The translations under genes and the position numbers were made by a program. From Flavobacterium sp. (GTDB lineage: Bacteria; Bacteroidota; Bacteroidia; Flavobacteriales; Flavobacteriaceae), in assembly GCA_018883065.1 (NCBI GenBank), contig VEQT01000006.1, positions 1,581 to 65,580 of the forward strand: DNA of 64,000 nt. Reading direction: 5' to 3'. The notes beneath the pieces are model-generated. The model made no database searches. It saw only the letters and a program-made list of their open reading frames with translations, and was not told where the DNA came from. Positions within the stretch are counted from its first letter, which is position 1; each line of letters begins with the position of its first letter. This document shows positions 6,998 to 20,287 of this stretch, in pieces.

Positions 6998-7062
6998 GTT
7001 AGTGATAAAAAAATCACCAATCGTAGGAACCACAATTGATGATTGATGACGTATTTCTCTAT

Positions 7063-7452
7063 TTACAAATTGGCCTGAATGGCTTGGGCTAAGGCAGTAA
7101 ATTCATCGGGCGTGAGGCTTACTTTATTTTGAAAACGCATTTCATCCATCTCGTTTAAAGGAATTAAATGCACATGTGCATGCGGCACTTCAAGCCCAAC
7201 AACAGCCATTCCAATACGTTTGCAAGGAACTGTTTTTTCGAGGGCAACGGCTACTTTTTTGGCAAATGTCATCAAACCCAAATAGGCTTGGTCGTCTAAA
7301 TCAAATAATTTATTGATCTCTTGTTTAGGAATGCAAAGTGTATGTCCTTTGGCATTGGGATTTACATCCAGAAAAGCCAAATGTTGTTCATCTTCAGCGA
7401 TGCGGTAACAGGGAATTTCTCCAGCTACAATTTTACTAAAAATACTGGCCAT
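7063..7452 (-). CDS. HIT family hydrolase
   Basis: SIFSKIVAGEIP, GHTL.IPK, HAHVHLIP. Confidence 0.95.
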   Translation of the reverse strand: MASIFSKIVAGEIPCYRIAEDEQHLAFLDVNPNAKGHTLCIPKQEINKLFDLDDQAYLGLMTFAKKVAVALEKTVPCKRIGMAVVGLEVPHAHVHLIPLNEMDEMRFQNKVSLTPDEFTALAQAIQANL

Positions 7453-7453
7453 C

Positions 7454-7930
7454 TTAGTCGCGTGTAATTTCTAAAACCTCAAATTTTAATACCCCGTTGG
7501 GTACGGTAATTTCAGCTATTTCTCCTACCGATTTTCCCAACAAGCCTTTGCCAATTGGTGAAGTCACCGAGATTTTTCCTGTTTTTAAATCGGCTTCGCT
7601 TTCGGCTACCAAGGTGTATTTCATTTCCATGCCATTGGCTTGGTTCTTGATTTTAACATTGGACAACACCAAAGCTTTTGATACATCCAATTGCGATTCA
7701 TCAATGAGACGCGCATTGGCATACACTTCTTCTAATTTGGAGATGCGCATTTCCAATAAGCCTTGCGCTTCTTTGGCCGCATCGTACTCGGCGTTTTCAG
7801 ACAAATCGCCTTTGTCACGAGCATCGGCTATATCTTGTGAGGCTTTGGGACGCATCACGCTCTTTAAATGATCTAATTCTTCTTTTAATTTTTTTAATCC
7901 TTCTGCGGTATAATACGATACTGTACTCAT
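7454..7930 (-). CDS. greA: Transcription elongation factor GreA
   Basis: ARDKGDLSENAEYDAAKE, ISVTSPIGKGLLGK. Confidence 0.98.
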   Translation of the reverse strand: MSTVSYYTAEGLKKLKEELDHLKSVMRPKASQDIADARDKGDLSENAEYDAAKEAQGLLEMRISKLEEVYANARLIDESQLDVSKALVLSNVKIKNQANGMEMKYTLVAESEADLKTGKISVTSPIGKGLLGKSVGEIAEITVPNGVLKFEVLEITRD

Positions 7931-7951
7931 AATTTCATTGGTTATATAAAT

Positions 7952-7993
7952 AGAAAAAATCCCATCTGGACGGGATTTCTTTTTTCAAAGATA
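7952..7993 (-). promoter_or_regulatory. greA promoter -7 motif followed by a terminator-like leader hairpin
   Basis: Minus strand: TATCTTTG (7993-7986), then AAATCCC-GTCCAGAT-GGGATTT-TTTCT. Confidence 0.6.
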
Positions 7994-8089
7994 GTATTTT
8001 TACTAAACGGGTGCTTTATTCAATTAATTTAGCGGAGTCAAAGTTAAAGAATTATATTTGTTTGCCTTCAACTTACACAACTTATTTTT

Positions 8090-8512
8090 ATGAGAAACCG
8101 CATTATCTGTTTACTCACCTTGCTGTATATTTCTTGCGCCGATAGTACCCAGCGCAACAATAATCCGTATTTGCCCAACTATGGTTTTTCAATAACAATC
8201 AATAAAAATTTACCCCTTTACAGTGGATTAAATAGTCCAATTAATCCCATTATCATTCGCGAGTCAACAGCAGGAATAAGCGGCATCATTGCCATGAAAA
8301 TTTCGGATTCTGATTACCGTGCGTGGGAACTCAGTTGTCCAAACCAAGTGCCCGCACCTTGTTCAGTAATGACACTCAATGGCTTGAACGCTAAATGTAG
8401 TTGTATTGATAATTTTGAGTACAGTTTGTTTACCGGAATTGGCAATGCGCCTTACACCATGAAACCCTATCGAGTAGAAATTCAGGGCAACTTGATTCAA
8501 ATTTCGAACTAA
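8090..8512 (+). CDS. Lipoprotein with a degenerate Rieske-like fold
   Basis: Lipobox LYIS-C; ELSCPN..PC...KCSC..F.YSLFTG...MKPYRV. Confidence 0.6.
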   Translation: MRNRIICLLTLLYISCADSTQRNNNPYLPNYGFSITINKNLPLYSGLNSPINPIIIRESTAGISGIIAMKISDSDYRAWELSCPNQVPAPCSVMTLNGLNAKCSCIDNFEYSLFTGIGNAPYTMKPYRVEIQGNLIQISN

Positions 8513-10584
8513 AACAGCACACTCATACCAATGAATCCATGGATTCCAGCTTGTGGATAAAAAAACACAGCTCCGCCGCCATAATCAGCACCGTTAGCGC
8601 TGTATTTCTTGTCGAACATATTGGCCAATAAACCAGAAAATACCACACTATTGAATACAGATTTCGGCTTAATTTCATAGCTAAAATTCAAATCATTTAC
8701 CCAATAATCTGCAAGTCGAGCATCACTAGTTTCCTCATTATTCAAAAACTGGGCGCTCACGTATTTTTGCAACCAACTCACTTTTAATGTCTTGCTAGGC
8801 GAATAGCTTAGTTGTGCACCCGAAATTAAATCTGGAGAAAAGGCTATGGTTTTGCCATTCCATGAATTTCCATCGCGAATTACATTTTTACTTTTAGTAA
8901 CATTGGCCTGCACCTGAAATTTTGATCCCAAAACCATACTGGCGTCAAGTTCAATACCCATGCGGTAACTTTTTCCTGTGTTGGCACGAATGGGATTACC
9001 CACCTCATCGAGTTGACCCGTTAGCACTAACTGATCTTGATAGCCCATATAATACCCATTTACAGCCCATTTTAGCTTTGCGGTTTGTTTTCGCCAGCCC
9101 AATTCAAAATCGTCCAACTTTTCAGGTCTTGGATTGCCGTTTTCATAATCGGTACGATTGGGCTCACGTTGGGCTTTGGCATAAGAAAAATACAATTGGT
9201 TTTTAGCATCCACTGCGTAGGTAAGTCCTGCCTTGGGGTTAAAAAAAGCAAAAACATCATCAACAGCAGTAGTTGAAATACCAGGCGCTGCATAGTACAC
9301 ATGCCTAAACTGAAGATCGGCATATGCGCTCCATTTGGCATTCAATTGAAATTGTCCTTTTACAAATACATTTCCATCTTTTTTTGTGGCCAAATTATCG
9401 TAGTAGCGGTCACCCAACTCATTGGTTGTAGCTACGCGCGTCCAAATTACCTTGCCAAAATGACTTCCAAAATAAGTGTTGTACCCGCCGCCTAAAAGCC
9501 ATTCTGTTTTATCGCTTTTTCGTTTCAAAGAAAAGGTAGTTCCATAAAAATCATTATCCAACCACTTTTGATCAACAACATCGCCAATTGTTTCAGGACC
9601 TGTTGGCACTAAATTATACAAAGCCAATTCGGCTTCATCGTTAAAGTTCTCGTAATACCCTTTTCCTTTGGTGTAATGCAAAGCAAAAGTGCTACTCCAT
9701 TTGGAAGAAAAGGTTTCGGTCCAATGCAGTTGCACATGATCTTGCTGGTAGTTGTCGGTTTGATTATCATAAAAACGCAGTTCACCATTGGCATCGGTGT
9801 ACATACCTGCAAAGTTAAAGGTGCGGGTGTTGTTTAGTGTTGCTGCATCTACACCATACCATGATTGATAGGTTTTTTCAGTTCCGCCAAAAACCAAGGC
9901 CTTTAATAAAGAGGTTTTACCAACAAAAGTAGCTTGCAAAAAGTAGGACTTTAATAGGGACTCTGCTCGATCAATGTAACCATCTGAAGCAATATTTGAA
10001 AGTCGACCCGCCAATTCAAATTGATTATTGAGTAAACCTGTACTAAATTTTACCGTATTTTTTCGGGTGTTAAAACTTCCCACCGAATTGTCTATTTGGG
10101 CATAACTTTTCTCCGAATAGGAATCGGTGAGCACATTCAAACTGGCGCCAAATGCACCTGCACCATTGGTTGAAGTTCCAACGCCACGCTGCAATTGAAC
10201 GCTGGCAACCGACGAAGCAAAATCGGGTAAATTTACCCAAAACGTGCTGTGGCTTTCGGAATCGTTATAGGGTATTCCATTCAGAGTAACGTTTACACGA
10301 GTAGCGTCACTTCCTCTAACCCGAACGCCCGTATACCCTATTCCATTTCCAGCATCAGAGGTGGTAACCACCGAAGGCATAAAATTGAGCAATAAAGGAA
10401 TGTCTTGTCCCAAATTGCGGGAAGCCAACTCCTTTTTGGTTAGGTTACTAAAACTAACTGGCGTGCTTGCAGTGGCGCGTATCGATGACACCAGCACCTC
10501 ATTTAAGGCATTGACCTTGGTTGTGTCTTGGATTTGGGCGAAAGTGATTGTTGAAAGAAAAAAAAGGGCAATAGTTGTTTTCAT
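8509..10584 (-). CDS. TonB-dependent receptor, probably for thiamine uptake
   Basis: Plug motifs (GQDIPLLL, VRGSDATR.NVTLNGIP.ND, VQLQRGVG), C-terminal F, TPP riboswitch upstream. Confidence 0.9.
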   Translation of the reverse strand: MKTTIALFFLSTITFAQIQDTTKVNALNEVLVSSIRATASTPVSFSNLTKKELASRNLGQDIPLLLNFMPSVVTTSDAGNGIGYTGVRVRGSDATRVNVTLNGIPYNDSESHSTFWVNLPDFASSVASVQLQRGVGTSTNGAGAFGASLNVLTDSYSEKSYAQIDNSVGSFNTRKNTVKFSTGLLNNQFELAGRLSNIASDGYIDRAESLLKSYFLQATFVGKTSLLKALVFGGTEKTYQSWYGVDAATLNNTRTFNFAGMYTDANGELRFYDNQTDNYQQDHVQLHWTETFSSKWSSTFALHYTKGKGYYENFNDEAELALYNLVPTGPETIGDVVDQKWLDNDFYGTTFSLKRKSDKTEWLLGGGYNTYFGSHFGKVIWTRVATTNELGDRYYDNLATKKDGNVFVKGQFQLNAKWSAYADLQFRHVYYAAPGISTTAVDDVFAFFNPKAGLTYAVDAKNQLYFSYAKAQREPNRTDYENGNPRPEKLDDFELGWRKQTAKLKWAVNGYYMGYQDQLVLTGQLDEVGNPIRANTGKSYRMGIELDASMVLGSKFQVQANVTKSKNVIRDGNSWNGKTIAFSPDLISGAQLSYSPSKTLKVSWLQKYVSAQFLNNEETSDARLADYWVNDLNFSYEIKPKSVFNSVVFSGLLANMFDKKYSANGADYGGGAVFFYPQAGIHGFIGMSVLF

Positions 10585-10719
10585 TCGTACTTGTATTACG
10601 AATAAAAGGGGTAATTATTCTTTGGTTAAAAAAAAGTTGTTCTTGCTTTGCTTAGAAAAGAAGTAAGATGCGCAGTCTAGCTTCTTAACTAAAAATGTTT
10701 GTGTAACATTTCTTGCTTG

Positions 10720-10798
10720 GCATTCCCTTGGCAGCATTACCTGCCCAGGTTCGTTGGGTATAATCTCAGCTCGTAATTTAGAGCACCCCTTTGAGACG
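10720..10798 (-). ncRNA. TPP riboswitch
   Basis: Minus strand AAAGGGGTGCTC...GAGCTGAGATTATACCCAACGAACCTGGGCAGGTAATGCTGCCAAGGGAA matches the THI-box consensus (GGGGUG, CUGAGA, ACCC, GAACCUG, UAAUGC, AGGGA). Confidence 0.95.
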
Positions 10799-10801
10799 GG
10801 A

Positions 10802-10809
10802 CAAATATA
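10802..10809 (-). promoter_or_regulatory. Bacteroidota -7 promoter element for the riboswitch/TBDR unit
   Basis: TATATTTG on the minus strand directly before the aptamer. Confidence 0.65.
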
Positions 10810-10819
10810 CTTGAAAAAA

Positions 10820-11221
10820 TTATAAATCAGGTTTGCGACGTAATTTTTTAGTTTCGGACCATGACTGCTTGTCTTTGAGTCGTTTACGAATAGCCGATTT
10901 GGGTACCTTGGTTATTTTTCTTGGCTGATCAATAATCAATGCCGCTTCTATGAGCAATAAAAAACGTTTCAAGGCACGCGTTTTGTTTTGAATTTGACTG
11001 CGGCTTTCGTCACAGCTTAGTTGTATTTGTTGGTCTTTACTGAGACGACTAGCCCATTTTTCAAGCAAAATCTGCTTTTCTTCAACGGATAAGGCGTTTG
11101 ATGCCGACAAATCAAATGAAAGTACAATCTTTGACGATACTTTGTTTACATGCTGACCGCCAGGGCCAGCGCTTCGGATGGCCTTGAATCGAAGTTCTCT
11201 TTGTAGTATTCCCCAGTTCAT
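10820..11221 (-). CDS. arfB: Alternative ribosome rescue peptidyl-tRNA hydrolase ArfB
   Basis: SAGPGGQHVNK (GGQ), basic C-terminal tail. Confidence 0.95.
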   Translation of the reverse strand: MNWGILQRELRFKAIRSAGPGGQHVNKVSSKIVLSFDLSASNALSVEEKQILLEKWASRLSKDQQIQLSCDESRSQIQNKTRALKRFLLLIEAALIIDQPRKITKVPKSAIRKRLKDKQSWSETKKLRRKPDL

Positions 11222-13335
11222 TAGTGTGGTTGATGTGCCGACTTAAGCAAATCGTTTACTGTCTTTACAGGATTAAATGTGAGCAAAGGAACTTCCACAA
11301 AAACAGTGAGCCAACGGGCCATGGCTCCGTTCCAAAGTCCGGGTAATTCATAGGCCTTAAATTCTACGCCGTTTTTTGCTTTAGACACCACAAAACCGGT
11401 TGTGGGATCAACAAAGTTTAACAAGTTAAATTTTTCGCCACGGTAATTTTTTAAGCCACACACCAAGTCTACCGGATTAAAGTGAGTTGATTGCTGCATA
11501 ATTTGTGCCTGAATTGGATTATGTAAATCGACTTGGGCCGATTCAACTATTTGCAAAGATAAATTGCCATTGGCGTTGCGCACCCAAAATGGACCACCGC
11601 CGGGTTCGCCCTCGTTTTTAACCATTCCACATACCCGTAGGGGTCGATTGAGTTTGTCTTTGATATAACTCCACTTATTTTCAGTGGTAAATTTGTAAAA
11701 ATCGTCGTTAATCGAACAATTTAAACTGTGAACCATCCACTCCACAACTGAATCTAATTCAAATTCAGAAATCGTTTGGGTATCTATTTTATTTAACAAA
11801 TCAAATACTTGTTCTTGCAAACGAATCAAATGTCCGGCCAACGCTTTTTTATATATTGCAATTTCATTCAACTGATTTTGACTCACATTATCAATGTTCT
11901 TGATAAACACCACATCGGCATCCAGCAACCCTAAGTTATGAATCAAGGCACCATGCCCAGCTGGCCTGAGCGTAATCGTATTGGTTTCAGAACGCAAGGG
12001 CTCAAAATCAGCGTTGATTGCAAGTGTATCCGTATGGGCAAATTGATACGAATAGTTTACTTGTATTTGAGTTTGGGTGTGCGTTTCGATTTTAGATTTG
12101 GTCGAATTAAGCACTGTTTGAAACAAGGTTTCATGGGCTTGCGAAACAGTAAAATGAAGATGTGAAACCCCATTTGAATTGGCATAAGTAGCGCATTCTT
12201 TGAGGTGTTCTTCTACTGGAGTAGCCAAATGACCCGTGTATTTGTGAAAATCAAGTACTCCTTTTGGTTTGTTGGCCATATCAAATTGATTGGGATGCAA
12301 CATATATTGAATAAAATAAAAATGTTTCGCATCTTGTTCCCAGGAAGCATATTCTTTAAAATCTGCCAGTAATTTTTTTTGAATCTTTTTATAAAATGAA
12401 AATTTTTCAATTCCTGCTAAAAAAAGAGCCAAATCACGGTTGTTCGATCGATTTATGTAGGCATTAATGGTTTCTTGGTGCGGGTTATAGTCACGCACAA
12501 AATCGTTCAAAAACTTAAACATTCTACTGGCTGCACCTGAAGCAGGCACAAATTTTTTCAGCTTATACGTTGATTTTCGTTCCTCAAAAAAAGTCGTCAG
12601 TTGTTGAATTTGTTCGGTATCAAATTGGATAATTCCATCCAGAATGGTTGCAGGGCGTTCCAATTGAATTGGTTTAGGCCCTTGTTTGATAAGCTGAATG
12701 TGTTCAAACAATTTGGTAATTGGTATGCCATGATGTATTACTTGCACGTAATCATGAGCAGTGAACCCATAACTTTTTGCTTTTTGGTAATCCAAACAAT
12801 GCATAATTGCGGCTGATAAACGCGTTTCTTTACTTCCCGATAATCGAATGTACGGTTTTTGATTGGCCACTAAAGCCGCTTCAAAATGGGCCAAGGCCTC
12901 CTCTCTTTGTTGGGGTCTGTCGCGTAAATCATCGGCTTCCCAAGGCACATCAATATCGGTGAGAAAAAATAAATCGTATTTGTGTTTGCGGGCAGTCTTC
13001 TCAAGAACAGGATCACACGTTTGGTAATACATCTCAGAATACACCTTGGTAACCATCAAAGTGGTGTCACAAAAAACAAAATCAGTTGCTGTTTGTATAG
13101 CCTCATTTTCAAGTGCCACTTGACCAATTGCAATTGGCATCAAATCTTCGGGAGTACAGGTTTGTTGGGCCGTGTCCCATTTGAGTTGCAAATAGTCACG
13201 GGCATACTCAGCTACCCAATTGGTGCTAAAATGTTTAGCTAATTGCTTGGCCAAAGTAGTTTTACCTGTACTCTCTGGGCCGTATATTGCTACTTTTATG
13301 AGGCTTGTAGCCTGTTGTTTAAGATGTTCTTCCAT
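11221..13335 (-). CDS. NadR-like ATPase/kinase (AAA_28) fused to DUF4301
   Basis: GPESTGKTT P-loop, EYARDY, DT, VPWEADDLRD; then VPASGAASRMFK, RPAGHGAL, KNIDNV, GEPGGGPFW, FNPVKT. Confidence 0.85.
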   Translation of the reverse strand: MEEHLKQQATSLIKVAIYGPESTGKTTLAKQLAKHFSTNWVAEYARDYLQLKWDTAQQTCTPEDLMPIAIGQVALENEAIQTATDFVFCDTTLMVTKVYSEMYYQTCDPVLEKTARKHKYDLFFLTDIDVPWEADDLRDRPQQREEALAHFEAALVANQKPYIRLSGSKETRLSAAIMHCLDYQKAKSYGFTAHDYVQVIHHGIPITKLFEHIQLIKQGPKPIQLERPATILDGIIQFDTEQIQQLTTFFEERKSTYKLKKFVPASGAASRMFKFLNDFVRDYNPHQETINAYINRSNNRDLALFLAGIEKFSFYKKIQKKLLADFKEYASWEQDAKHFYFIQYMLHPNQFDMANKPKGVLDFHKYTGHLATPVEEHLKECATYANSNGVSHLHFTVSQAHETLFQTVLNSTKSKIETHTQTQIQVNYSYQFAHTDTLAINADFEPLRSETNTITLRPAGHGALIHNLGLLDADVVFIKNIDNVSQNQLNEIAIYKKALAGHLIRLQEQVFDLLNKIDTQTISEFELDSVVEWMVHSLNCSINDDFYKFTTENKWSYIKDKLNRPLRVCGMVKNEGEPGGGPFWVRNANGNLSLQIVESAQVDLHNPIQAQIMQQSTHFNPVDLVCGLKNYRGEKFNLLNFVDPTTGFVVSKAKNGVEFKAYELPGLWNGAMARWLTVFVEVPLLTFNPVKTVNDLLKSAHQPH

Positions 13336-13919
13336 TCGATAAAGCCGTAAATGGCGATGCTAGTAAAAATAAGATATTGAATGCTGGTAAAGGTATACCC
13401 TTTTGCAAAATATAACGGAATCGAAATGAGATCGCCAGCAATCCAAAACAACCAATTTTCAATCTTTCGTCGAGCCATGAGCCACATGCCCACAAAAAAT
13501 AGACCCGTAACAAATGTATCTAGATAGGTTGTCCAATGCGTAAACTTACCAAAAATGAAGTAAATCAACACCACAAATAGCGCGGCTGCTATAAATAACA
13601 ACATGGCATGTACATATTCTTTTGGTTGCATGCGAGAAATGGCCAATTCGTTGTGTTGGTCATCCTTTCTTGACCATATTATCCAGCCGTATATACTCAT
13701 GCCAACATAGTAGGCATTAATGAGCATGTCGCCCAACAGATTCCATTTCCATAACAAATACACATAAATGGCGGTATTAATTAATCCTGTAGGAAACACA
13801 GTCAAACTGTTTTTTTTGGCAGCCCAAACACTCCATAATCCAAACAAAATAGCCGTAAGTTCCAAGGCAATTTCATAAGTTGGATAGGTAGAATATTGTG
13901 CAAATAAAAAGTCTAACAT
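13296..13919 (-). CDS. pnuC: PnuC-family vitamin/nucleoside transporter
   Basis: Multi-TM; YGW..W, LMARRKIENWLFWIAGD. Confidence 0.9.
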   Translation of the reverse strand: MLDFLFAQYSTYPTYEIALELTAILFGLWSVWAAKKNSLTVFPTGLINTAIYVYLLWKWNLLGDMLINAYYVGMSIYGWIIWSRKDDQHNELAISRMQPKEYVHAMLLFIAAALFVVLIYFIFGKFTHWTTYLDTFVTGLFFVGMWLMARRKIENWLFWIAGDLISIPLYFAKGYTFTSIQYLIFTSIAIYGFIEWKNILNNRLQAS

Positions 13920-14632
13920 GAGGTAAAAAATTGCGGATCTTCTTCAAAAGCAGTTCCAATTACAACCACATCGGCTCCTGCTGAATAGGCCGCTTGAATT
14001 TCCTGCTGCGAACGAAGACCTCCACCTACGATAAGCGGAACTGAAATTGATTGTGATACGGCTTGGATCATCTCTAAAGGGACGGACAACTGCGCACCAC
14101 TGCCTGCTTCTAAGTAGATGAGTTTAGCCCCTAAATATTCCCCTGCCTTTGCCGTGTGTACTGCCAAATCAATGTCTATTCTGGAAATGGGTTTTGTGTT
14201 ACTCACCCGCTCCACACTAGTAACTTGACCGCTTTCGATGAGCAAATAGCCGGTAGAAATGACTTCCAAATCCATCTGCATCAAAGTAGGTGTAGCGTCA
14301 ACTTGTTGTTGAATTAAATAATCGGGATTTCTGCCTGAGAGCAAACTCAAAAACAAAATGGCATCGGCCTGTGTTGAAAGCTGGGAAGAATTTCCGGGAA
14401 ACAAAACTACTGGTAAATCGATAGCTTTTTTTAGTGCTTGCACCAACTCATCAATGGCCAACGCACTATGGCTGCTTCCGCCCACTAAGATCAAATGAGC
14501 TGGCGAATGTTGAATGGCGCAAATAGTACTTTCCCACGCTTCCCAATTTATTTTTTCAGGATCCAATAAAATAGCCAATTGCTTTATTCCGTTGGCTTTT
14601 TTTGAACAAATTTGGGGATAAAGTGTTTGCAT
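13913..14632 (-). CDS. Geranylgeranylglyceryl/heptaprenylglyceryl phosphate synthase
   Basis: LLDPEK, LVGGS, VLFPG, SLLSGRNP, YLEAGSGA, VGGG. Confidence 0.9.
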   Translation of the reverse strand: MQTLYPQICSKKANGIKQLAILLDPEKINWEAWESTICAIQHSPAHLILVGGSSHSALAIDELVQALKKAIDLPVVLFPGNSSQLSTQADAILFLSLLSGRNPDYLIQQQVDATPTLMQMDLEVISTGYLLIESGQVTSVERVSNTKPISRIDIDLAVHTAKAGEYLGAKLIYLEAGSGAQLSVPLEMIQAVSQSISVPLIVGGGLRSQQEIQAAYSAGADVVVIGTAFEEDPQFFTSC

Positions 14633-15264
14633 TAGGTGGTTTCAAAAGTATAGACCAACGCATAATCGGCCAGGAGTTGATACTGTACTGCAAAATTTCT
14701 TGGCAATAAACCTAAGGCAAGCGTGGCCGAAGTATGTGCCGAATTCAATTTAAATGGCGCTACAAAAATATGATCTTTGAAACTAATTCCTTCTTGATTG
14801 ACTATTTTAAATACCGCTTCCTTAGCTCCCCAAATCACGGTGAGTCGTTGGATTTCGGTTGTTAAATCAGGGGCCAAATAGTGCAATTCAGTGGCACAAA
14901 ATTTGGAGCCAATTTTAGCCACTTTCTCGCGTACCAGTTCTACATCAACGCCAACAGATTGATTGCTTACAATTACAACTGCCAATTGGTGTGAATGCGA
15001 AATGGAGATAAATTTTCCGTCAGTCAAATGCGGTTTGCCGCTGGCATCGTAATATAAATCGGCATCGGTATACCCCAACCGCAAAAGCAATTGGCGCACA
15101 CTTAAAAATGCCCGTTGATGCAAAACAGATTTCATCGATTGGATGCGACGCTGGCTCTGCTCAGTAAGAACCAAATTACCATGTAACTCAGCAATGGATT
15201 CGTCAATTGACCAAACCAATAATTGGGTGTGACTATTTGGATGAACATGCAAATACAACGACAT
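14632..15264 (-). CDS. 4'-phosphopantetheinyl transferase superfamily protein
   Basis: GKPHL, ISISHS, VGVDVE, WGAKEAVFK. Confidence 0.9.
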   Translation of the reverse strand: MSLYLHVHPNSHTQLLVWSIDESIAELHGNLVLTEQSQRRIQSMKSVLHQRAFLSVRQLLLRLGYTDADLYYDASGKPHLTDGKFISISHSHQLAVVIVSNQSVGVDVELVREKVAKIGSKFCATELHYLAPDLTTEIQRLTVIWGAKEAVFKIVNQEGISFKDHIFVAPFKLNSAHTSATLALGLLPRNFAVQYQLLADYALVYTFETT

Positions 15265-15416
15265 AGCTAAAGCAGGGAAATTTCAAAAACGTTTTCGTTA
15301 ACTAAAAACAGCTAGCGTCGTTTTAATTGAAAAATATTTTGTTGAAAATTAAACGATTACGGGGATAAACAATTCACAAATCAGTTTAAAACTTTTTTAA
15401 ATCCTAAGTTATTGTC

Positions 15417-15424
15417 TAAATTTG
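15417..15424 (+). promoter_or_regulatory. -7 promoter element of ahcY
   Basis: TAAATTTG 32 nt before the ATG. Confidence 0.6.
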
Positions 15425-15455
15425 CCCAAAATTTTTAAATACAAATATACTATAA

Positions 15456-16772
15456 ATGAGTACGACAACTATGCCTTATGTGGCCTACAAAGTAAAAGAC
15501 ATTTCCTTGGCAGCTTGGGGAAGAAAAGAAATTGAATTGGCTGAAGCTGAAATGCCGGGTTTAATGGCACTTCGTGCAGAATATGGCGCAAGTCAACCGT
15601 TAAAAGGAGCACGCATTGCAGGCTGTTTACACATGACTATCCAAACAGCAGTATTAATTGAAACCTTAATTGCTCTTGGAGCTGAAGTTACTTGGTCATC
15701 GTGTAACATTTTCTCAACGCAAGACCAAGCCGCAGCAGCCATTGCCGCAGCAGGTATTCAAGTTTATGCATGGAAGGGATTAAACGAAGAAGACTTTGAT
15801 TGGTGTATTGAGCAAACGTTATTCTTTGGTGAAGACCGCAAACCGTTAAACATGATTTTAGATGATGGAGGTGATTTAACCAATATGGTATTTGATCGTT
15901 ACCCAGAATTAATTGACGGAATTAAAGGATTGTCTGAAGAAACGACTACGGGTGTTCACCGTTTGTATGAGCGCATGAAAAATGGCACCTTGTTTATGCC
16001 AGCCATCAATGTGAATGACTCGGTAACTAAATCTAAATTTGACAACAAATACGGTTGTAAAGAATCGGCGGTTGATGCCATTCGTAGAGCTACTGACGTA
16101 ATGTTGGCCGGAAAACGTGTAGTTGTGTGTGGATACGGAGATGTTGGGAAAGGAACTGCTGCTTCATTCCGCGGCGCAGGTTCAATTGTTACAGTAACAG
16201 AAATTGATCCAATATGCGCGCTTCAAGCTGCTATGGACGGATTTGAAGTTAAAAAATTGAATACTGTTGTTGCAAATGCCGACATTGTGATTACTACAAC
16301 TGGAAACAAAAACATCGTTTTGGGAAGTCACTTTGAACAAATGAAAGACAAAACCATTGTGTGTAACATTGGTCATTTTGATAACGAAATTGACATGGCT
16401 TGGTTAAATAAAAACCACGGTGCTTCAAAAGTTGAAATTAAACCACAAGTAGATAAATATACCATTGCAGGTAAAGACATTTTGATTTTAGCCGAAGGTC
16501 GTTTGGTTAACTTAGGTTGCGCTACAGGACACCCAAGTTTTGTAATGAGTAACTCATTTACAAATCAAACCTTGGCTCAAATAGAGTTATGGACCAACAG
16601 TGCTGCATACAAAAATGAAGTGTACATGTTACCCAAACACCTCGACGAAAAAGTAGCAGCTTTACACCTTGCAAAATTAGGCGTAGAACTCGAAACCTTA
16701 AACGATGAACAAGCAGCTTACATTGGCGTTGCTGTTCAAGGACCGTTTAAGCCAGAGTATTATAGATACTAA
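15456..16772 (+). CDS. ahcY: Adenosylhomocysteinase
   Basis: [48 protein letters not shown]. Confidence 0.98.
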
Positions 16773-16796
16773 GATTTTAGAATTAAATATTGATAC

Positions 16797-16826
16797 AAAG
16801 CCCTTACATTGCTGTAAGGGTTTTTT
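16797..16826 (+). terminator. Intrinsic terminator of ahcY
   Basis: AAAGCCCTTAC-ATTGCT-GTAAGGGTTTTTT. Confidence 0.85.
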
Positions 16827-16849
16827 GTTTTTTACCTCGAATGAACGAT

Positions 16850-17334
16850 TTTTTTAGATGACAGACAAAAAGAGATTAGATGACAGACGTAGCTAAGAAA
16901 TTCCAATCTAAAAATTCCAATGCCGAAGCGTTGGGACCTAAAACTTGATTATTGGTTTTCGCAACACAGATTTATAAAATTTGTGAAATAATTAAAATTT
17001 TTCAGATTATATACATTTCTTCAATCCGTGCTCCAAAAAAAATATTTGCCACGAATGCACGAATTATATAAATTCCAATATAAAAATTCCAATCCCGATG
17101 CTTCGGGACCAACAACCACAATAGCACCACCGAAGACTTCCATGACCATAGGATTTGGCAGGCGTCCCGAAGCGTCGGGACAAAAGGGTGAGACTTCCGT
17201 AAAGAAACTCAAACTGTTTGAGTCCGCGAGGTAACGAGCGGGAGAGTTTTTGAGTTTTAGGAAGTGAGCCTATTTTGATCGCCGAAAATCCAAGGTCTTG
17301 ATTTTTTGTTTCTTTTTCATCAAGGAAAAAGAAA
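16850..17334. repeat. Composite modular intergenic repeat, locus 1 (modules A-B-C-B-D-B-E)
   Basis: Near-identical blocks recur at 53630-54075; CCCGAAGCTTCGGGAC-type palindromes at about 16921, 17093 and 17165. Confidence 0.9.
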
Positions 17335-17399
17335 GGAATAACATTTGGAATTACACTATTTCATTTTTAGAATAATGACTTTAAAAAAAGCTACTAGCT

Positions 17400-17434
17400 A
17401 AAAAAAAGGAGAACAGTGCTGTTCTCCTTTTTTT
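17400..17434. terminator. Bidirectional intrinsic terminator
   Basis: A8-GGAGAACAG-TG-CTGTTCTCC-T7 perfect inverted repeat. Confidence 0.85.
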
Positions 17435-17437
17435 GTT

Positions 17438-17827
17438 TTAGCGTAAAACCTCTATTGTTACTTGACTAAACTCACCTTGAGTGAGGCCAGCTTTGATGTA
17501 GGCAAATAAATTGGTTTGATCTATTTCGCAGTATTTTAAATCGACTTTGGGGTTGTCTATATTTAATATTTTAATGTGCTTTTTATCTTCATTAGATAGA
17601 AAAGTTATCAGTATAACACGAGGATATTTAGGAAGTTTAAGTTTAAATTTCTCTATATCACTCGAAAGTTTATCAACTGTTTTTTGATTTGTTTGGGCGA
17701 GTTTTTGGTGTTTTAATTCGTTTTCTGGATTAAGTTCTTGAGTAAAGGATTCCATTTTTAGCTGATTGCTAAAATAAGTGGCGGTGATTCGTAATGTAAT
17801 TCTGATTTCAGAAACAAGTTTTGGCAT
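17438..17827 (-). CDS. Orphan hypothetical protein
   Basis: 129-aa AT-rich ORF (alternative start 17755) ending at a terminator; no motif recognised. Confidence 0.5.
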   Translation of the reverse strand: MPKLVSEIRITLRITATYFSNQLKMESFTQELNPENELKHQKLAQTNQKTVDKLSSDIEKFKLKLPKYPRVILITFLSNEDKKHIKILNIDNPKVDLKYCEIDQTNLFAYIKAGLTQGEFSQVTIEVLR

Positions 17828-17971
17828 AGTATAAAGAGTTAATGGGTTACAAAAGAAAGAATGAAAAAGAACGCAAAAACCCGAAGGCTTACTTTAACGA
17901 ATACTGTTGCTGTTTTGTTACACTTTTTTGAAATTAATTATTTTTTAAACAACTGACAACCGACAACAAAT

Positions 17972-18003
17972 AAAAAAGCCCATTCAAATTGAATGGGCTT
18001 TTT
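17972..18003 (-). terminator. Terminator of rplU-rpmA
   Basis: AAAAAAGCCCATTC-AAATT-GAATGGGCTTTTT. Confidence 0.85.
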
Positions 18004-18021
18004 GAGAAATTGTACTGAATC

Positions 18022-18282
18022 TTATGCTTCGAAAGCTTCTACAGAAACATAGGATTTGTTGTCTTTTTTCTTTTGGAACTTCACAACTCCGTCTACTTTA
18101 GCGTGTAATGTGTGATCTTTACTGATGTACACATTTTCGCCTGGATTGTGTTTAGAACCTCTTTGTCTTACGATGATGTTCCCTGCAATAGCAGCTTGAC
18201 CACCAAAAATCTTTACGCCTAAACGTTTCGATTCTGATTCTCTACCATTCTTGGAACTACCGACACCTTTCTTGTGAGCCAT
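18022..18282 (-). CDS. rpmA: 50S ribosomal protein L27
   Basis: [24 protein letters not shown]. Confidence 0.99.
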
Positions 18283-18305
18283 GACGTATTCGTTTTATAT
18301 TGTTA

Positions 18306-18731
18306 TTATTCTTGTGTATCTTCTTTTTTAGCTTTTGGCGCTTTTTTTACTTTTGGCGCTTCTGCTTCTTCAGCTACTGCTTCAACTACTGCTTTTTTAG
18401 GGGCTGCTTTTTTAGCACCTGAGGCAATAATTCCTTCAATTTGAATTTGAGTAAGGTACTGTCTGTGACCATTTCTCTTTTTGAATCCTTTTCTTCTTTT
18501 CTTTTTGAAAACGATTACTTTGTCTCCTTTTAAGTGTTGTAACACTTTGGCTTCTACAGAAGCACCTTCTATAGCTGGGGCGCCTAAAGTAATGTTTCCG
18601 TTATCGTCTAATAAAAGAACTTTGTCAAAAGAAACTTTTGAACCTTCTTCATTAGCCAAACGGTGAACATAAACCTTTAAGTCTTTGCTTACTTTAAATT
18701 GTTGCCCTGCTATCTCTACGATTGCGTACAT
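18306..18731 (-). CDS. rplU: 50S ribosomal protein L21 with an Ala/Lys-rich tail
   Basis: MYAIVEIAGQQFKV, FKKKRRKG...GHRQ. Confidence 0.99.
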   Translation of the reverse strand: MYAIVEIAGQQFKVSKDLKVYVHRLANEEGSKVSFDKVLLLDDNGNITLGAPAIEGASVEAKVLQHLKGDKVIVFKKKRRKGFKKRNGHRQYLTQIQIEGIIASGAKKAAPKKAVVEAVAEEAEAPKVKKAPKAKKEDTQE

Positions 18732-18961
18732 AACAATGATGTTTAGTTAATTATAAAATGGACGCAAATATACAACTTAATCTCAATCACACAACCTAAG
18801 GTTAAAAAAAGTTCATTTGATTGCTGCTAGCCATTATCAGATTGTATAAAATCGATGATAAGGAACTTGAAAGTACACTAAATACCGTATTTTTGAAGCA
18901 CAAACTACGTGCAAGAAGTGCGTATGTATTTATTTCAACAGCAACTTATTTAGTAATTTTT

Positions 18962-20287
18962 ATGAAAAAATACCTTATGACGTTAAGTGCATCACTACTT
19001 GTGGGATCAGCCGCTACGGCACAAAAAGTAGTCTTTGAAGAACTTACCCTCGACAATGGATTACATGTAATTTTACACCAAGACAAATCAGCACCTGTGG
19101 TGATCACCTCGGTGATGTATCACGTGGGCGCCAAAGACGAAATGCCCGATCGCACCGGATTTGCTCACTTTTTTGAGCATTTATTATTTGAGGGCACGCA
19201 AAACATTGGCCGCGGCGAATGGATGAAAATTGTAACCGGTAATGGCGGCGTAAACAATGCCAATACCTCTGACGACCGTACCTATTATTACGAAGTGTTT
19301 CCGTCAAACAGCTTGGAATTGGGATTGTGGATGGAGGCCGAACGTATGCTTCATCCGGTAATTAATCAAGTGGGAGTAGACACCCAAAACGAAGTCGTAA
19401 AAGAAGAAAAACGCTTGCGCATGGACAACCAACCCTACGGTTGTGTGATTCGGGAAGTGAAGAAAAATTTGTTTAAAAACCATCCTTACCGTTGGGAAAC
19501 CATTGGGTCTATGGAACACTTAGATGCCGCAACCCTTGAAGAGTTTCAGGCGTTTAATAAAAAATTCTACGTGCCCAACAACGCTGTTTTAGTAGTAGCA
19601 GGAAATTATGATAAGGCACAAACGCTTGAATGGATTCAAAAGTATTTTGCGTCAATTCCAAAGGGCGCACCGCTAAGCAAACAACAATTTGACGAAGAAC
19701 CCATTACACAAACCATTGAGGCCAGCTATGAAGACCCCAACATTCAGATTCCCATGTTGCTCAATGCCTACCGCACTCCATCTATGAAAACCAGAGAAGC
19801 GCGCGTGTTGGAAATGATCTCGGGCTTATTGAGCGATGGAAAAAGTTCGCGCTTGTACAAAAAATTAGTCGACGACAAAAAAATGGCCTTACAAATTGGT
19901 GCATTCAGTTTCAGCCAAGAAGATCACGGCATGTATGTGGTTTACGGTTTGCCATTGGCTCCATTTACGATTAAAGACTTACAAACAGAATTTGATGCCG
20001 AAATTGCGCGATTGCAAAATGAATTGATTTCGCCCAAAGAATTAGAAAAACTAAAAAACAAAATTGAAAACCAGTATGTAAATAATAACGCCTCTGTTGA
20101 GGGAATTGCCGAAAGTTTGGCGTCTTATTATTTATTGTATGGCGATGTAAATCTCATCAATACCGACATTGAAACCTACCGTTCGGTTACCCGAGAAGAA
20201 ATTCAAGCGGTAGCCAAAAAATACTTGGGTAATAACCAACGTCTGCTGTTATCCTATCTTCCAACCCAAGAAAAACCGCAAAATTAA
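18962..20287 (+). CDS. M16 (pitrilysin) zinc peptidase, catalytic subunit
   Basis: Signal peptide, GFAHFFEHLLF (HxxEH), NANTS.DRT.Y; start ATG 18962. Confidence 0.92.
   Translation: MKKYLMTLSASLLVGSAATAQKVVFEELTLDNGLHVILHQDKSAPVVITSVMYHVGAKDEMPDRTGFAHFFEHLLFEGTQNIGRGEWMKIVTGNGGVNNANTSDDRTYYYEVFPSNSLELGLWMEAERMLHPVINQVGVDTQNEVVKEEKRLRMDNQPYGCVIREVKKNLFKNHPYRWETIGSMEHLDAATLEEFQAFNKKFYVPNNAVLVVAGNYDKAQTLEWIQKYFASIPKGAPLSKQQFDEEPITQTIEASYEDPNIQIPMLLNAYRTPSMKTREARVLEMISGLLSDGKSSRLYKKLVDDKKMALQIGAFSFSQEDHGMYVVYGLPLAPFTIKDLQTEFDAEIARLQNELISPKELEKLKNKIENQYVNNNASVEGIAESLASYYLLYGDVNLINTDIETYRSVTREEIQAVAKKYLGNNQRLLLSYLPTQEKPQN

What the first reader, a model, noticed from the sequence alone, without database searches (positions are those of the whole stretch)
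11221..13919. PnuC plus NadR-kinase::DUF4301 fusion: candidate two-step salvage enzyme with a UGPase-like nucleotidyltransferase
Seen: pnuC overlaps by 40 bp a 704-aa gene made of a NadR-type P-loop kinase domain and DUF4301. DUF4301 carries VPASGAASRMFK, RPAGHG, FIKNIDNV and FNPVKTVNDLL. From memory these parallel the eukaryote-type UDP-glucose/UDP-GlcNAc pyrophosphorylase motifs (GGxGT loop, PxGHG, SNxDNL, FLPVKTTSDLL). Established: canonical NadR joins a ribosylnicotinamide kinase to an NMN adenylyltransferase to trap PnuC substrate. Inference: DUF4301 is a non-homologous replacement of that adenylyltransferase, or activates another phosphorylated vitamin or sugar. A TPP-regulated TBDR two genes downstream leaves the substrate open (nicotinamide riboside versus thiamine).
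Basis: partly seen in the sequence, partly recalled or inferred. Interest (0 to 1): 0.68.

Follow-up and report, generated by a model that had tools for sequence, protein, structure and literature searches.

The report
PnuC plus kinase–UGPase-like fusion enzyme
A freshwater Flavobacterium encodes a vitamin-B3 (nicotinamide riboside) transporter next to a two-domain enzyme: a NadR-type kinase fused to an uncharacterised domain (DUF4301) that is a divergent UDP-sugar-pyrophosphorylase-type nucleotidyltransferase, which may make NAD in a new way, though this has not been tested.

Summary
On the minus strand, pnuC (13296-13919) overlaps by 40 nt a 704-aa gene (11221-13335) made of a NadR-type ribosylnicotinamide-kinase (RNK) domain and DUF4301.

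The structural guess also holds. An AlphaFold model of DUF4301 matches only eukaryote-type UDP-glucose/UDP-GlcNAc pyrophosphorylases at the top (Foldseek E down to 2e-9). Eleven motifs are colinear with human UGPase, and 18 of 57 family members weakly hit Pfam UDPGP. DUF4301 differs by two helical insertions and has no C-terminal beta-helix domain.

In 80 Flavobacteriales loci the order pnuC-RNK-DUF4301 is conserved:
- 46 loci have separate, overlapping genes.
- 20 loci have the fusion, which arose at least twice.

Outside that order DUF4301 is a stand-alone gene, also in gut Bacteroides and Phocaeicola. It was never next to pnuC or RNK (0 of 85 places), and it keeps the same invariant residues.

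The proposed function (NMN + ATP -> NAD, a non-homologous stand-in for NadR's adenylyltransferase) is the best-fitting reading, at about 0.45. It is untested. A housekeeping UDP-sugar pyrophosphorylase is a serious rival at about 0.3.

The TPP riboswitch controls only the TonB receptor downstream. No paper describes DUF4301 function.

The parts
13296..13919 (-). pnuC, a Pnu-family transporter of 207 aa. The TM6 motif is WLFWIAGD (WxxWxxxD).
   Evidence: Pfam PF04973 1.4e-52. TIGR01528 scores 102 bits against a cut-off of 42.45. PDB 4qtn PnuC matches at 2.3e-7.
13296..13335 (-). 40-nt overlap between the 3' end of pnuC and the 5' end of the fusion gene
   Evidence: ORF coordinates. The same geometry is found in 66 of 66 loci that have pnuC and RNK.
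11221..13335 (-). 704-aa fusion gene, RNK::DUF4301
   Evidence: More than 100 90%-identity clusters of about 704 aa with the same two Pfam domains, mostly Flavobacterium. AlphaFold full-length model: pLDDT 86.5, pTM 0.79.
12820..13296 (-). RNK (AAA_28) domain, residues 14-172. Features: Walker A GPESTGKTT at residues 19-27 (nt 13255-13281), EYARDY from residue 43, Walker B FCDTT from residue 88, lid PWEADDLRD from residue 131.
   Evidence: Pfam 6.4e-41. TIGR01526 model positions 164-318 of 325. PDB NadR sequence hits. Foldseek 8x7f at 2.6e-8, rmsd 2.7 A. Motif coordinates.
12760..12819 (-). Linker, residues 173-192, predicted helical and confident
   Evidence: Helix 169-188 with pLDDT about 90 across the junction.
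11230..12759 (-). DUF4301 domain, residues 193-702: a UGPase/UAP-like nucleotidyltransferase core
   Evidence: Pfam PF14134 1.6e-193. Model pLDDT 84.4, pTM 0.85. The Foldseek top 25 are all UGPase/UAP, E from 2e-9 to 1e-5.
12517..12549 (-). Nucleotide-binding loop equivalent, VPASGAASRMF (residues 263-273). It corresponds to KLNGGLGTSMG of human UGPase.
   Evidence: P, S, G, R and M are invariant in 57 diverse members.
12271..12516 (-). Insertion 1: a helical segment about 80 aa longer than in UGPase, between the nucleotide-binding loop and the KPKG motif (residues 356-359)
   Evidence: Spacing is 93 aa against 13 in UGP2. Helices in the model.
11950..11967 (-). RPAGHG (residues 457-462), corresponding to YPPGHG of UGPase
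   Evidence: Aligned to the PNGHG of UAP 3oc9 by a profile search.
11884..11901 (-). KNIDNV (residues 479-484), corresponding to SNIDNL of UGPase
11608..11883 (-). Insertion 2: a helical segment about 59 aa longer than in UGPase, between NIDN and the GGG strand
   Evidence: Spacing is 98 aa against 39. Long helices at residues 489-562.
11245..11277 (-). FNPVKTVNDLL (residues 687-697), with the putative catalytic Lys691. It corresponds to FLPVKTTSDLL of UGPase. The protein ends 7 residues later, so there is no beta-helix domain.
   Evidence: hhalign and hmmsearch align this segment. Pfam UDPGP hits of family members map here.
10820..11221 (-). arfB (ribosome-rescue peptidyl-tRNA hydrolase), the last gene of the packed string. 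Its start overlaps the fusion gene's stop by 1 nt.
   Evidence: NF006718 scores 117.8 bits against a cut-off of 100.
10707..10800 (-). TPP-riboswitch-like aptamer in front of the receptor gene. It is a separate regulatory unit.
   Evidence: RF00059 at 42.1 bits, E 1.1e-6, below the gathering score of 54.3. A strict core motif lies just upstream of the receptor homologue in 33 of 80 loci and moves with it.
8509..10584 (-). TonB-dependent receptor (691 aa)
   Evidence: Pfam Plug and TonB_dep_Rec_b-barrel.
13913..15264 (-). Upstream genes of the same tightly packed string: a PcrB/GGGPS-like gene (13913-14632) and a 4'-phosphopantetheinyl transferase (14632-15264)
   Evidence: The order is conserved in Flavobacteriales.

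Best explanation
The locus is a compact salvage module for nicotinamide riboside (NR). The proposed mechanism has three steps.

1. PnuC lets NR diffuse in. This is inferred from family membership and from the transporter-plus-trapping-kinase logic of Pnu systems.
2. The N-terminal RNK domain of the fusion phosphorylates NR to NMN. This is inferred from clear homology to experimentally characterised NadR kinase domains.
3. The C-terminal DUF4301 domain joins a nucleoside monophosphate from an NTP to the phosphate of NMN and releases pyrophosphate. With ATP the product is NAD.

The fold and the catalytic motifs of DUF4301 are shown here. It is a divergent member of the eukaryote-type UDP-sugar pyrophosphorylase superfamily. 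Its substrate is inferred, not shown.

On this reading the fusion rebuilds the two-step architecture of NadR (kinase plus adenylyltransferase) with a nucleotidyltransferase of an unrelated fold. The stand-alone DUF4301 of other Bacteroidota would then recycle endogenous NMN.
For: - RNK domain. Pfam AAA_28 and the RNK half of the NadR models match. The best PDB hit is the RNK domain of Bas30_86 (9x6f, 1.3e-20). That enzyme was shown to convert NR to NMN to NAD (PMC13464706). Its functionally required E230 and D275 map to invariant E76 and D121 here. Foldseek finds NadR 8x7f at 2.6e-8, rmsd 2.7 A.
- No HIGH-type adenylyltransferase domain is present.
- DUF4301 fold. The top 25 PDB matches are all UGPase/UAP (repeated with the full-length model). 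The only PDB hit of the family profile is UAP 3oc9, aligned on the GHG and NxDN motifs. UDPGP is the only second Pfam family hit by many members, 18 of 57, best E 3e-6.
- Eleven motifs, including the lysine of VKTxxDLL, are colinear with human UGPase. The chemistry of this superfamily, NTP plus a phosphate monoester giving NDP-X plus PPi, is exactly what NMN to NAD needs (established knowledge).
- Context. Of 80 Flavobacteriales loci, 66 carry pnuC-RNK-DUF4301 in that order. In the 46 with separate genes, the RNK stop to DUF4301 start gap is -4 nt in 21 and -1 nt in 9.
- The fusion arose at least twice. In Flagellimonas L048 the nearest DUF4301 is the unfused Muricauda L059, at 75% identity.
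- The full-length model is confident through the junction, pTM 0.79.
- An unrelated neighbour would rarely happen to be a phosphate-ester nucleotidyltransferase (inference).
Against: - No assay exists, and no residue-level evidence for NMN or ATP.
- DUF4301 is mainly a stand-alone gene. About 2,500 clusters at 50% identity were found, and only 3 of the best 150 are long enough to carry the kinase domain.
- It keeps the same invariant residues in all lineages.
- It was next to pnuC or RNK in 0 of 79 metagenome loci and 0 of 6 genome places outside Flavobacteriales. The linkage therefore reflects essentially one ancestral arrangement plus two fusions.
- The same gene string holds unrelated genes (PPTase, PcrB, arfB) with equally tight overlaps.
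- Nine loci keep pnuC-DUF4301 with RNK lost or decayed.
- By colinear position the UGPase-like Gln, GHG, NIDN, GG, Glu, Asn and Lys are all kept. That fits a sugar-1-phosphate just as well.
- Bacteroidota are believed to have NadD/NadE, and NMN can be routed through a deamidase, so no pathway hole demands this enzyme (my knowledge, unverified here).
- The PnuC binding site differs from the NR ligands of N. mucosa PnuC: Q124, Q196 and N214 correspond to S, M and D (and PMC13464706).
Confidence: 0.45

Rival explanations
1. DUF4301 is a housekeeping UTP:hexose-1-phosphate uridylyltransferase (UDP-glucose or UDP-sugar pyrophosphorylase) of the Bacteroidota/Chlorobi group. Its position after pnuC-RNK in Flavobacteriales is inherited synteny in a mixed housekeeping operon. 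The fusions are tolerated accidents between overlapping genes.
For: - The closest structures are UGPase and UAP.
- Motif wording is nearest to UGPase (GHG, NIDN, VE.AQV, F.PVKT..DLL). All positions that bind UDP-glucose in that family are kept by colinearity.
- The family is widespread, single-domain and without a conserved partner. That is typical of housekeeping genes such as galU.
- It is present in gut Bacteroides and Phocaeicola.
- Invariant residues are the same with or without RNK.
- Other genes of the string are just as tightly packed.
- RNK is dispensable in several lineages while DUF4301 is not.
- Bacteroidetes carry GT3-type glycogen synthases, which in eukaryotes use UDP-glucose (PMC11046441).
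- Hints that canonical galU is not general in these bacteria: it was reported as unique to one species of the F. columnare group (PMC12087154). It was not among the proteins detected for Bacteroides (PMC11632381).
Against: - Two independent fusions to an NR kinase, kept across large clades, are unexpected for unrelated activities.
- The segment that lines the sugar pocket in UGPase/UAP (QLETAVGAAI) is replaced by an invariant ELPGLWNGAM with two invariant tryptophans.
- There are two large insertions next to the active site, and the family misses the Pfam UDPGP threshold.
- I could not establish that galU is absent from these genomes. No GalU-like ORF lies in the DNA held here, but that is only a small part of any genome.
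Confidence: 0.3
2. The module handles a different Pnu cargo, such as thiamine or another cationic nucleoside-like vitamin. The kinase phosphorylates it and DUF4301 nucleotidylates the phosphate, for example to an adenosine-thiamine-type compound.
For: - The PnuC TM6 motif ends in Asp (WLFWIAGD), as in the thiamine transporter PnuT. It is Asn in N. mucosa PnuC (PMC5749112).
- Three of the four NR ligands of N. mucosa PnuC are not conserved (PMC13464706).
- A TPP-riboswitch-controlled receptor is the next transcription unit in most loci.
Against: - The riboswitch lies downstream of pnuC, the fusion gene and arfB, so it cannot regulate them. It stays with the receptor when the receptor lies about 5 kb further downstream.
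- The kinase is a clear NadR-RNK homologue with the functionally required residues conserved.
- Pnu thiamine systems pair with thiamine pyrophosphokinase, and thiamine activation needs no nucleotidyl transfer (established knowledge).
Confidence: 0.07
3. DUF4301 nucleotidylates some other endogenous phosphate ester. Examples are a polyprenyl-glyceryl phosphate made by the PcrB gene of the same string, a nucleotide to give a dinucleoside polyphosphate, or ribose phosphates. Alternatively it works in reverse as a pyrophosphorylase on a dinucleotide.
For: - Any phosphate nucleophile fits the chemistry.
- PcrB is two genes upstream.
- relA/spoT is the divergent neighbour in 30 gut and rumen Bacteroidales loci.
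- A sulfotransferase-like ORF lies directly upstream in two distant MAGs.
Against: None of these neighbours recurs across orders. PcrB was not found next to DUF4301 outside Flavobacteriales. There is no positive evidence for any specific substrate.
Confidence: 0.15

Closest known systems
NadR (bifunctional NMN adenylyltransferase / ribosylnicotinamide kinase, working with PnuC), e.g. H. influenzae 1LW7, L. lactis 6GYE, phage Bas30_86 9X6F
   Same: The kinase domain is homologous (E 1e-20 to 1e-8; rmsd 2.7-3.9 A). It is paired with a PnuC gene. It is fused to a second domain whose enzyme class (NTP:phosphate-ester nucleotidyltransferase) is the one needed for the next step.
   Different: The second domain is C-terminal, not N-terminal. 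It has a UGPase/GT-A-like fold instead of the HIGH-motif Rossmann cytidylyltransferase fold. There is no HTH domain. The protein scores far below the TIGR01526/NF005988 cut-offs. The activity of the second domain is unknown.
Eukaryote-type UDP-sugar pyrophosphorylases (Pfam UDPGP PF01704): UGPase (3R2W, 2ICY, 2I5K), UAP1/AGX1 (1JVD, 2YQC, 4BMA), USP
   Same: Core fold. The order and spacing of eleven motifs: nucleotide-binding loop, PKG, TS, Q, GHG, NxDN, GG, VExxQ, FN, ExxxxxGA, VKTxxDLL with the catalytic Lys.
   Different: - Sequence identity is about 10-17%, and the window protein does not reach the Pfam UDPGP threshold.
- The nucleotide-binding loop reads ASGAASRMF instead of GGLGTSMG.
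- There are two helical insertions, of about 80 and about 59 aa.
- The C-terminal left-handed beta-helix domain is absent.
- The sugar-pocket segment is replaced by an invariant ELPGLWNGAM.
- The family is restricted mainly to Bacteroidota and Chlorobi.
Other kinase plus nucleotidyltransferase salvage pairs or fusions: Bacteroides FKP (fucokinase/GDP-fucose pyrophosphorylase), AmgK-MurU, RibF (riboflavin kinase/FMN adenylyltransferase)
   Same: The logic is the same: phosphorylate a salvaged compound, then activate the phosphate with an NTP, in one polypeptide or one operon.
   Different: The kinase families differ (GHMP, APH-like, RFK), as do the nucleotidyltransferase subfamilies. None is paired with a Pnu transporter except the riboflavin systems. 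This comparison comes from my own knowledge and was not tested here.
PnuC / PnuT / PnuX transporters
   Same: Seven-helix Pnu core, the WxxW(x)3[D/N] motif, and a gene overlapping that of a trapping kinase.
   Different: The substrate-contacting residues differ from those of N. mucosa PnuC. Specificity was not tested.

Membership tests
UDPGP superfamily (eukaryote-type UGPase/UAP) | Three-dimensional fold of the catalytic domain | tested here: met
   In the Foldseek search against the PDB, the top 25 hits are all UGPase/UAP. E ranges from 2e-9 to 1e-5, probability is 1.0, TM is 0.33-0.53. The same result came from the full-length model.
UDPGP superfamily (eukaryote-type UGPase/UAP) | Score at or above the Pfam PF01704 gathering threshold | tested here: not met
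   The window domain gives no UDPGP hit even at E 10. Of 57 family members, 18 give weak hits, best E 3e-6. The two hits inspected score 17.1 and 10.9 bits against a cut-off of 22.
UDPGP superfamily (eukaryote-type UGPase/UAP) | Catalytic and substrate motifs: PKG lysine, GHG, NxDN, Lys of VKTxxDLL | tested here: met
   The motifs are colinear with human UGP2, whose sequence was verified against 3r2w. GHG and NxDN are aligned by a profile search to 3oc9. The C-terminal motifs are aligned by hhalign (E 0.002, probability 14%) and by hmmsearch. All are invariant in 57 members.
UDPGP superfamily (eukaryote-type UGPase/UAP) | Glycine-rich nucleotide-binding loop, G-G-x-G-T-x-M-G | tested here: inconclusive
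   The loop is replaced by P-A-S-G-A-A-S-R-M-F. G, R and M are invariant but the wording differs.
UDPGP superfamily (eukaryote-type UGPase/UAP) | C-terminal beta-helix / oligomerisation domain (present in UGPase) | tested here: not met
   The protein ends 7 residues after the VKTxxDLL motif. UGP2 continues for about 105 residues.
UDPGP superfamily (eukaryote-type UGPase/UAP) | UTP + sugar-1-phosphate -> UDP-sugar + PPi activity | not testable with these tools
   This needs an enzyme assay.
NadR family | RNK (P-loop) domain with Walker A, Walker B and lid | tested here: met
   Pfam AAA_28 at 6.4e-41. TIGR01526 positions 164-318 of 325 at 3.7e-30. PDB NadR sequence hits. Foldseek NadR hits. E76 and D121 correspond to E230 and D275 of Bas30_86.
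NadR family | HIGH-motif NMN adenylyltransferase domain | tested here: not met
   No such domain appears in Pfam or NCBIfam. The whole-protein score is 105 bits against a cut-off of 341 for TIGR01526, and 76 against 201 for NF005988.
NadR family | NR kinase activity | not testable with these tools
   This needs an enzyme assay.
PnuC (nicotinamide riboside transporter) | Family models and the TM6 WxxW(x)3[D/N] motif | tested here: met
   PF04973 at 1.4e-52. TIGR01528 at 102 bits against a cut-off of 42.45. The motif is WLFWIAGD (motif definition from PMC5749112).
PnuC (nicotinamide riboside transporter) | NR-coordinating residues of N. mucosa PnuC (Q124, Q196, N214, Y242) | tested here: not met
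   The alignment to 4qtn places S, M and D at the first three positions and an aromatic residue at the fourth (residue list from PMC13464706). A verified phage NR transporter also deviates, so this does not exclude NR.
TPP riboswitch (RF00059) | Score at or above the Rfam gathering threshold | tested here: not met
   The score is 42.1 bits against 54.3, E 1.1e-6, over the full-length model, and the variable P3 stem is missing. There was no gathering-level hit in 8 related loci either. The conserved core lies upstream of the receptor gene in 33 of 80 loci.
NMN adenylyltransferase (EC 2.7.7.1) as a function | NMN + ATP -> NAD + PPi | not testable with these tools
   Only context and chemistry support this.

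The most novel reading that the evidence does not exclude
DUF4301 is a structurally new class of NMN (or NaMN) adenylyltransferase, built on the UDP-sugar-pyrophosphorylase fold. It would be used throughout Bacteroidota, including human-gut Bacteroides, to turn salvaged or recycled NMN into NAD. In flavobacteria it would be hard-wired to the NR transporter and kinase. This would be a case of non-homologous replacement of one of the most conserved steps of cofactor synthesis.
Probability: 0.35. Interest if true: 0.8.

Novelty: new variant of a known kind. Interest (0 to 1): 0.6.

Why it matters
DUF4301 is a large uncharacterised family: about 2,500 clusters at 50% identity, in Flavobacteriia, Cytophagia, gut Bacteroides and Phocaeicola, and Chlorobi. 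The held literature mentions it in only one paper, an unrelated rumen metaproteome study, which I did not open.

This work gives it a firm enzyme class, a UGPase-type NTP:phosphate-ester nucleotidyltransferase. It also gives two concrete candidate reactions that can be separated by assay.

- If it makes NAD from NMN, it would be a new fold for an essential cofactor step. It would change how NAD salvage is reconstructed in Bacteroidota, including B3 cross-feeding in gut and aquatic communities.
- If it is the UDP-glucose pyrophosphorylase of the group, it fills a gap in nucleotide-sugar and glycogen metabolism models.

Either outcome removes a widespread DUF.

Tried and rejected
- Rfam at gathering threshold on 7000-19000 found nothing. 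The TPP element appears only in E-value mode. Eight related loci also gave no gathering-level TPP hit.
- Sequence search of the whole protein against the PDB found no structure for the DUF4301 part. The profile search gave only one marginal hit, E 0.12.
- hhalign of the family profile against a single UGP2 sequence reached only 14% probability. I had no diverse UDPGP alignment for a proper profile-profile test.
- The viral-contig scan gave only two partial matches at contig ends, so DUF4301 is not a phage NAD-reconstitution gene.
- The promoter and terminator scans gave counts no different from shuffled sequence.
- Sequencing runs were all DNA metagenomes (freshwater), so there is no RNA evidence for co-transcription.
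- Literature. 'DUF4301' gave one paper, unrelated by its title and abstract, which I did not open. 'PF14134' gave none. The searches for NMNAT in Bacteroidetes and for galU in Bacteroides or Flavobacterium gave no direct statement.
- A search for a GalU-like ORF in all DNA held (window plus 166 loci) found none. This is uninformative, because the loci cover only the DUF4301 neighbourhoods.
- I considered whether the small sulfotransferase-like ORFs upstream of DUF4301 in two MAGs are cryptic kinases related to RNK. Only a P-loop-like N-terminus is shared.
- I considered using the conserved Gln as proof of UTP specificity and rejected it. The equivalent Gln is also present in ATP-using relatives (my knowledge).

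Full report
**What is in the window.** The minus strand between 15264 and 8509 carries a tightly packed string of genes:
- a 4'-phosphopantetheinyl transferase (14632-15264)
- a PcrB/GGGPS-like prenyltransferase (13913-14632)
- pnuC (13296-13919)
- a 704-aa gene (11221-13335)
- arfB (10820-11221)
- after a 235-nt spacer, a TonB-dependent receptor (8509-10584)

Pfam and NCBIfam assign these functions with large margins. pnuC and the 704-aa gene share 40 nt. The 704-aa protein has AAA_28 at residues 14-172 and DUF4301 at residues 193-702, with E 1.6e-193 for the latter. The spacer holds a full-length match to the TPP riboswitch model. The match scores below Rfam's gathering score (42.1 against 54.3 bits, E 1.1e-6), so the default scan misses it. 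The window comes from a freshwater metagenome. Its closest relatives are Flavobacterium.

**The kinase domain.** The N-terminal domain hits only the kinase half of the NadR models. It also hits the RNK domains of four solved NadR proteins. The best hit is 9x6f (E 1.3e-20). [quoted passage not shown] Two RNK-site residues whose mutation impaired that enzyme are E230 and D275. In the alignment they fall on E76 and D121 of the fusion, and both are invariant in 73 fused homologues. The offset of 6 between chain numbering and paper numbering is my inference. The full-length model superposes on E. coli NadR's kinase domain at 2.7 A. No HIGH-motif adenylyltransferase domain and no HTH is present. I regard NR kinase activity as likely. 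It has not been shown.

**The DUF4301 domain.** An AlphaFold2 model built on 49 sequences has pLDDT 84.4 and pTM 0.85. Foldseek against the PDB returns only eukaryote-type UDP-glucose and UDP-GlcNAc pyrophosphorylases in the first 25 places (E 2e-9 to 1e-5, probability 1.0). Other GT-A-like sugar nucleotidyltransferases follow three or more orders of magnitude behind. The full-length model gives the same picture.

At the sequence level:
- A profile of 57 diverse DUF4301 proteins finds a single PDB chain, the UAP of Entamoeba (3oc9, E 0.12). It is aligned on RPgGHG/aPNGHG and NiDN/NVDN.
- UDPGP is the only other Pfam family hit by many members, 18 of 57, best E 3e-6. The two hits whose coordinates I inspected lie in the C-terminal part of the domain.

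Eleven motifs occur in the same order in both proteins, with similar spacing:

| DUF4301 (window) | Human UGP2 |
|---|---|
| VPASGAASRMF | KLNGGLGTSMG |
| KPKG | GPKS |
| HFTVS | LMNSF |
| SYQF | FNQS |
| RPAGHG | YPPGHG |
| KNIDNV | SNIDNL |
| EPGGGPF | DVKGGTL |
| QIVESAQV | RLVEIAQV |
| HFNPVD | IFNTNN |
| ELPGLWNGAM | QLETAVGAAI |
| FNPVKTVNDLL | FLPVKTTSDLL |

The exceptions are two insertions in DUF4301. One adds about 80 aa after the nucleotide-binding loop and the other adds about 59 aa after NIDN. Both are helical in the model. DUF4301 also stops 7 residues after the last motif, so it lacks the beta-helix domain of UGPase. hhalign against the single UGP2 sequence aligns the C-terminal motifs, but with low probability (14%, E 0.002).

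DUF4301 is a very divergent member of the UDPGP superfamily, and almost certainly an NTP:phosphate-ester nucleotidyltransferase.

**Distribution and context.** The fusion itself is common. More than 100 clusters at 90% identity, of about 704 aa, carry both domains. Where sources name them, they call them 'DUF4301 family protein' or 'nicotinamide riboside kinase'.

An exhaustive search with the DUF4301 domain finds about 2,500 clusters at 50% identity. Nearly all of the best 150 are stand-alone proteins of about 510 aa.

In 80 Flavobacteriales genome loci the order is ahcY(-) | PPTase-(PcrB)-pnuC-RNK-DUF4301-(arfB)-[TPP element]-receptor-orf140(-), and it is strongly conserved. The breakdown is:
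- 46 loci have separate RNK and DUF4301 genes. The stop-to-start gap is -4 nt in 21 and -1 nt in 9.
- 20 loci have the fusion.
- 9 loci have pnuC-DUF4301 without an intact RNK.
- 5 loci have DUF4301 without pnuC.

The fusion arose at least twice, because the fused Flagellimonas protein is closest (75%) to an unfused Muricauda one. RNK can decay while its neighbours stay intact. There are remnants in L042, a truncation in L015, and clean losses in a Flavobacterium subclade. The 40-nt pnuC/RNK overlap is conserved in all 66 loci that have both genes.

Outside Flavobacteriales the picture changes. Six genome places were examined: Flexithrix, two Bacteroidales MAGs (one annotated as Lentimicrobiaceae), a Chlorobi MAG, a Thermodesulfobacteriota MAG and a 7.9-Mb genome. 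Of the 80 metagenome loci fetched, DUF4301 could be placed among called genes in 79. None of these places has pnuC or an RNK next to DUF4301.

The only recurrent neighbours come from one lineage of gut and rumen Bacteroidales, which includes Bacteroides caccae and Phocaeicola:
- a divergent relA/spoT, in 30 loci
- a purK-like gene, in 6 loci

The invariant residues of the family are the same in all lineages. The family is not found in phage contigs.

**The TPP element and the thiamine question.** A strict regular expression for the TPP aptamer core matches just upstream of the receptor homologue in 33 of 80 loci. This includes loci where the receptor lies about 5 kb further downstream of DUF4301. 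The riboswitch therefore belongs to the receptor. It cannot control pnuC or the fusion gene, which lie upstream of it.

The PnuC here has Asp in the WxxW(x)3[D/N] motif. It does not keep three of the four NR ligands of N. mucosa PnuC (PMC5749112 and PMC13464706). Its specificity is therefore not certain. The kinase partner points to NR.

**How it most likely works.**
- Shown here: gene order, overlaps, domain identities, fold, motif conservation, phyletic pattern.
- Inferred: PnuC admits NR, the RNK domain traps it as NMN, and DUF4301 condenses NMN with ATP to give NAD.

The strongest argument is the coincidence of chemistry and position. The domain that follows an NR kinase, and is twice fused to it, belongs to exactly the enzyme class that the next pathway step needs. 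This mirrors NadR with an unrelated fold.

The strongest counter-arguments are three:
- DUF4301 plainly has a function that does not depend on pnuC or RNK in most of its hosts.
- The flavobacterial linkage is essentially one inherited arrangement inside a mixed operon.
- Every UGPase-like substrate-contact motif is retained.

A housekeeping UDP-hexose pyrophosphorylase is therefore a serious rival. It would fit the UDP-glucose-type (GT3) glycogen synthases of Bacteroidetes (PMC11046441). It would also fit weak hints that canonical galU is not general in these bacteria.

I put the NMN reading at about 0.45, the UDP-sugar reading at about 0.30, another phosphate ester at about 0.15, and a thiamine-type cargo at about 0.07.

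**Novelty.** The gene family and the fusion are already in databases, but only as a DUF. The held literature has one paper that mentions DUF4301, a rumen metaproteome study unrelated by its title and abstract, which I did not open. What is new is the firm fold and enzyme-class assignment, the anatomy relative to UGPase, the phyletic and context map, and two testable substrate hypotheses. It is a new variant of a known enzyme kind. If the NMN reading is right, it would be a new structural class of NAD-forming enzyme.

Noticed in passing
window 8090-8512 (+): A 140-aa ORF with a lipoprotein-like signal (…LLYISCADS) and several Cys has no Pfam or NCBIfam hit. It is convergent with the TPP-controlled TonB receptor and is found in that position in most of the 80 Flavobacteriales loci. 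It may be a partner of the receptor.
   Followed up: partly
window 10707-10800 (-); L002, L010, L018, L023, L035, L037, L050, L072: The TPP riboswitch of this clade lacks the variable P3 stem. It scores below Rfam's gathering threshold in the window and in all 8 related loci scanned, although the aptamer core is conserved in front of the receptor gene. Default Rfam annotation under-calls it.
   Followed up: partly
L083 1763-2395 (+); L082 6576-6995 (+): In a Chlorobi MAG and a Bacteroidales MAG, a small sulfotransferase-like ORF lies directly upstream of stand-alone DUF4301. The Pfam Sulfotransfer_1 hits are weak. The two ORFs are homologous to each other. It was not seen in the other loci.
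   Followed up: partly
L113-L166 (30 loci), e.g. L113 3680-5890 (-): In gut and rumen Bacteroidales (Bacteroides, Phocaeicola), DUF4301 is divergently adjacent to a full-length relA/spoT gene. In 6 loci a purK-like ATP-grasp gene follows it. This is probably lineage synteny, and its meaning is unknown.
   Followed up: partly
L042 2211-2563; L015 7632-7706; L032, L037, L045, L057: The RNK gene decays or is cleanly lost in several flavobacteria while pnuC and DUF4301 stay intact and overlapping. PnuC therefore persists without its cis-encoded trapping kinase.
   Followed up: partly
window 13296-13919 (-): This PnuC carries Ser, Met and Asp where N. mucosa PnuC has the NR ligands Q124, Q196 and N214. 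Its TM6 motif ends in Asp, as in the thiamine transporter PnuT. Its substrate specificity deserves a direct test.
   Followed up: partly
window 13913-14632 (-): A bacterial PcrB/GGGPS-family prenyl-glyceryl-phosphate synthase scores above the NF003198 cut-off. It sits in the same overlapping gene string, between a PPTase and pnuC, and is present in about half of the related loci.
   Followed up: no
L002 1092-1175 (+) and 5310-5388 (-): There are two copies of the Flavo-1 RNA (Rfam RF01705, 55 and 67 bits) near the syntenic region in Flavobacterium xinjiangense. None was found in window 7000-19000.
   Followed up: no
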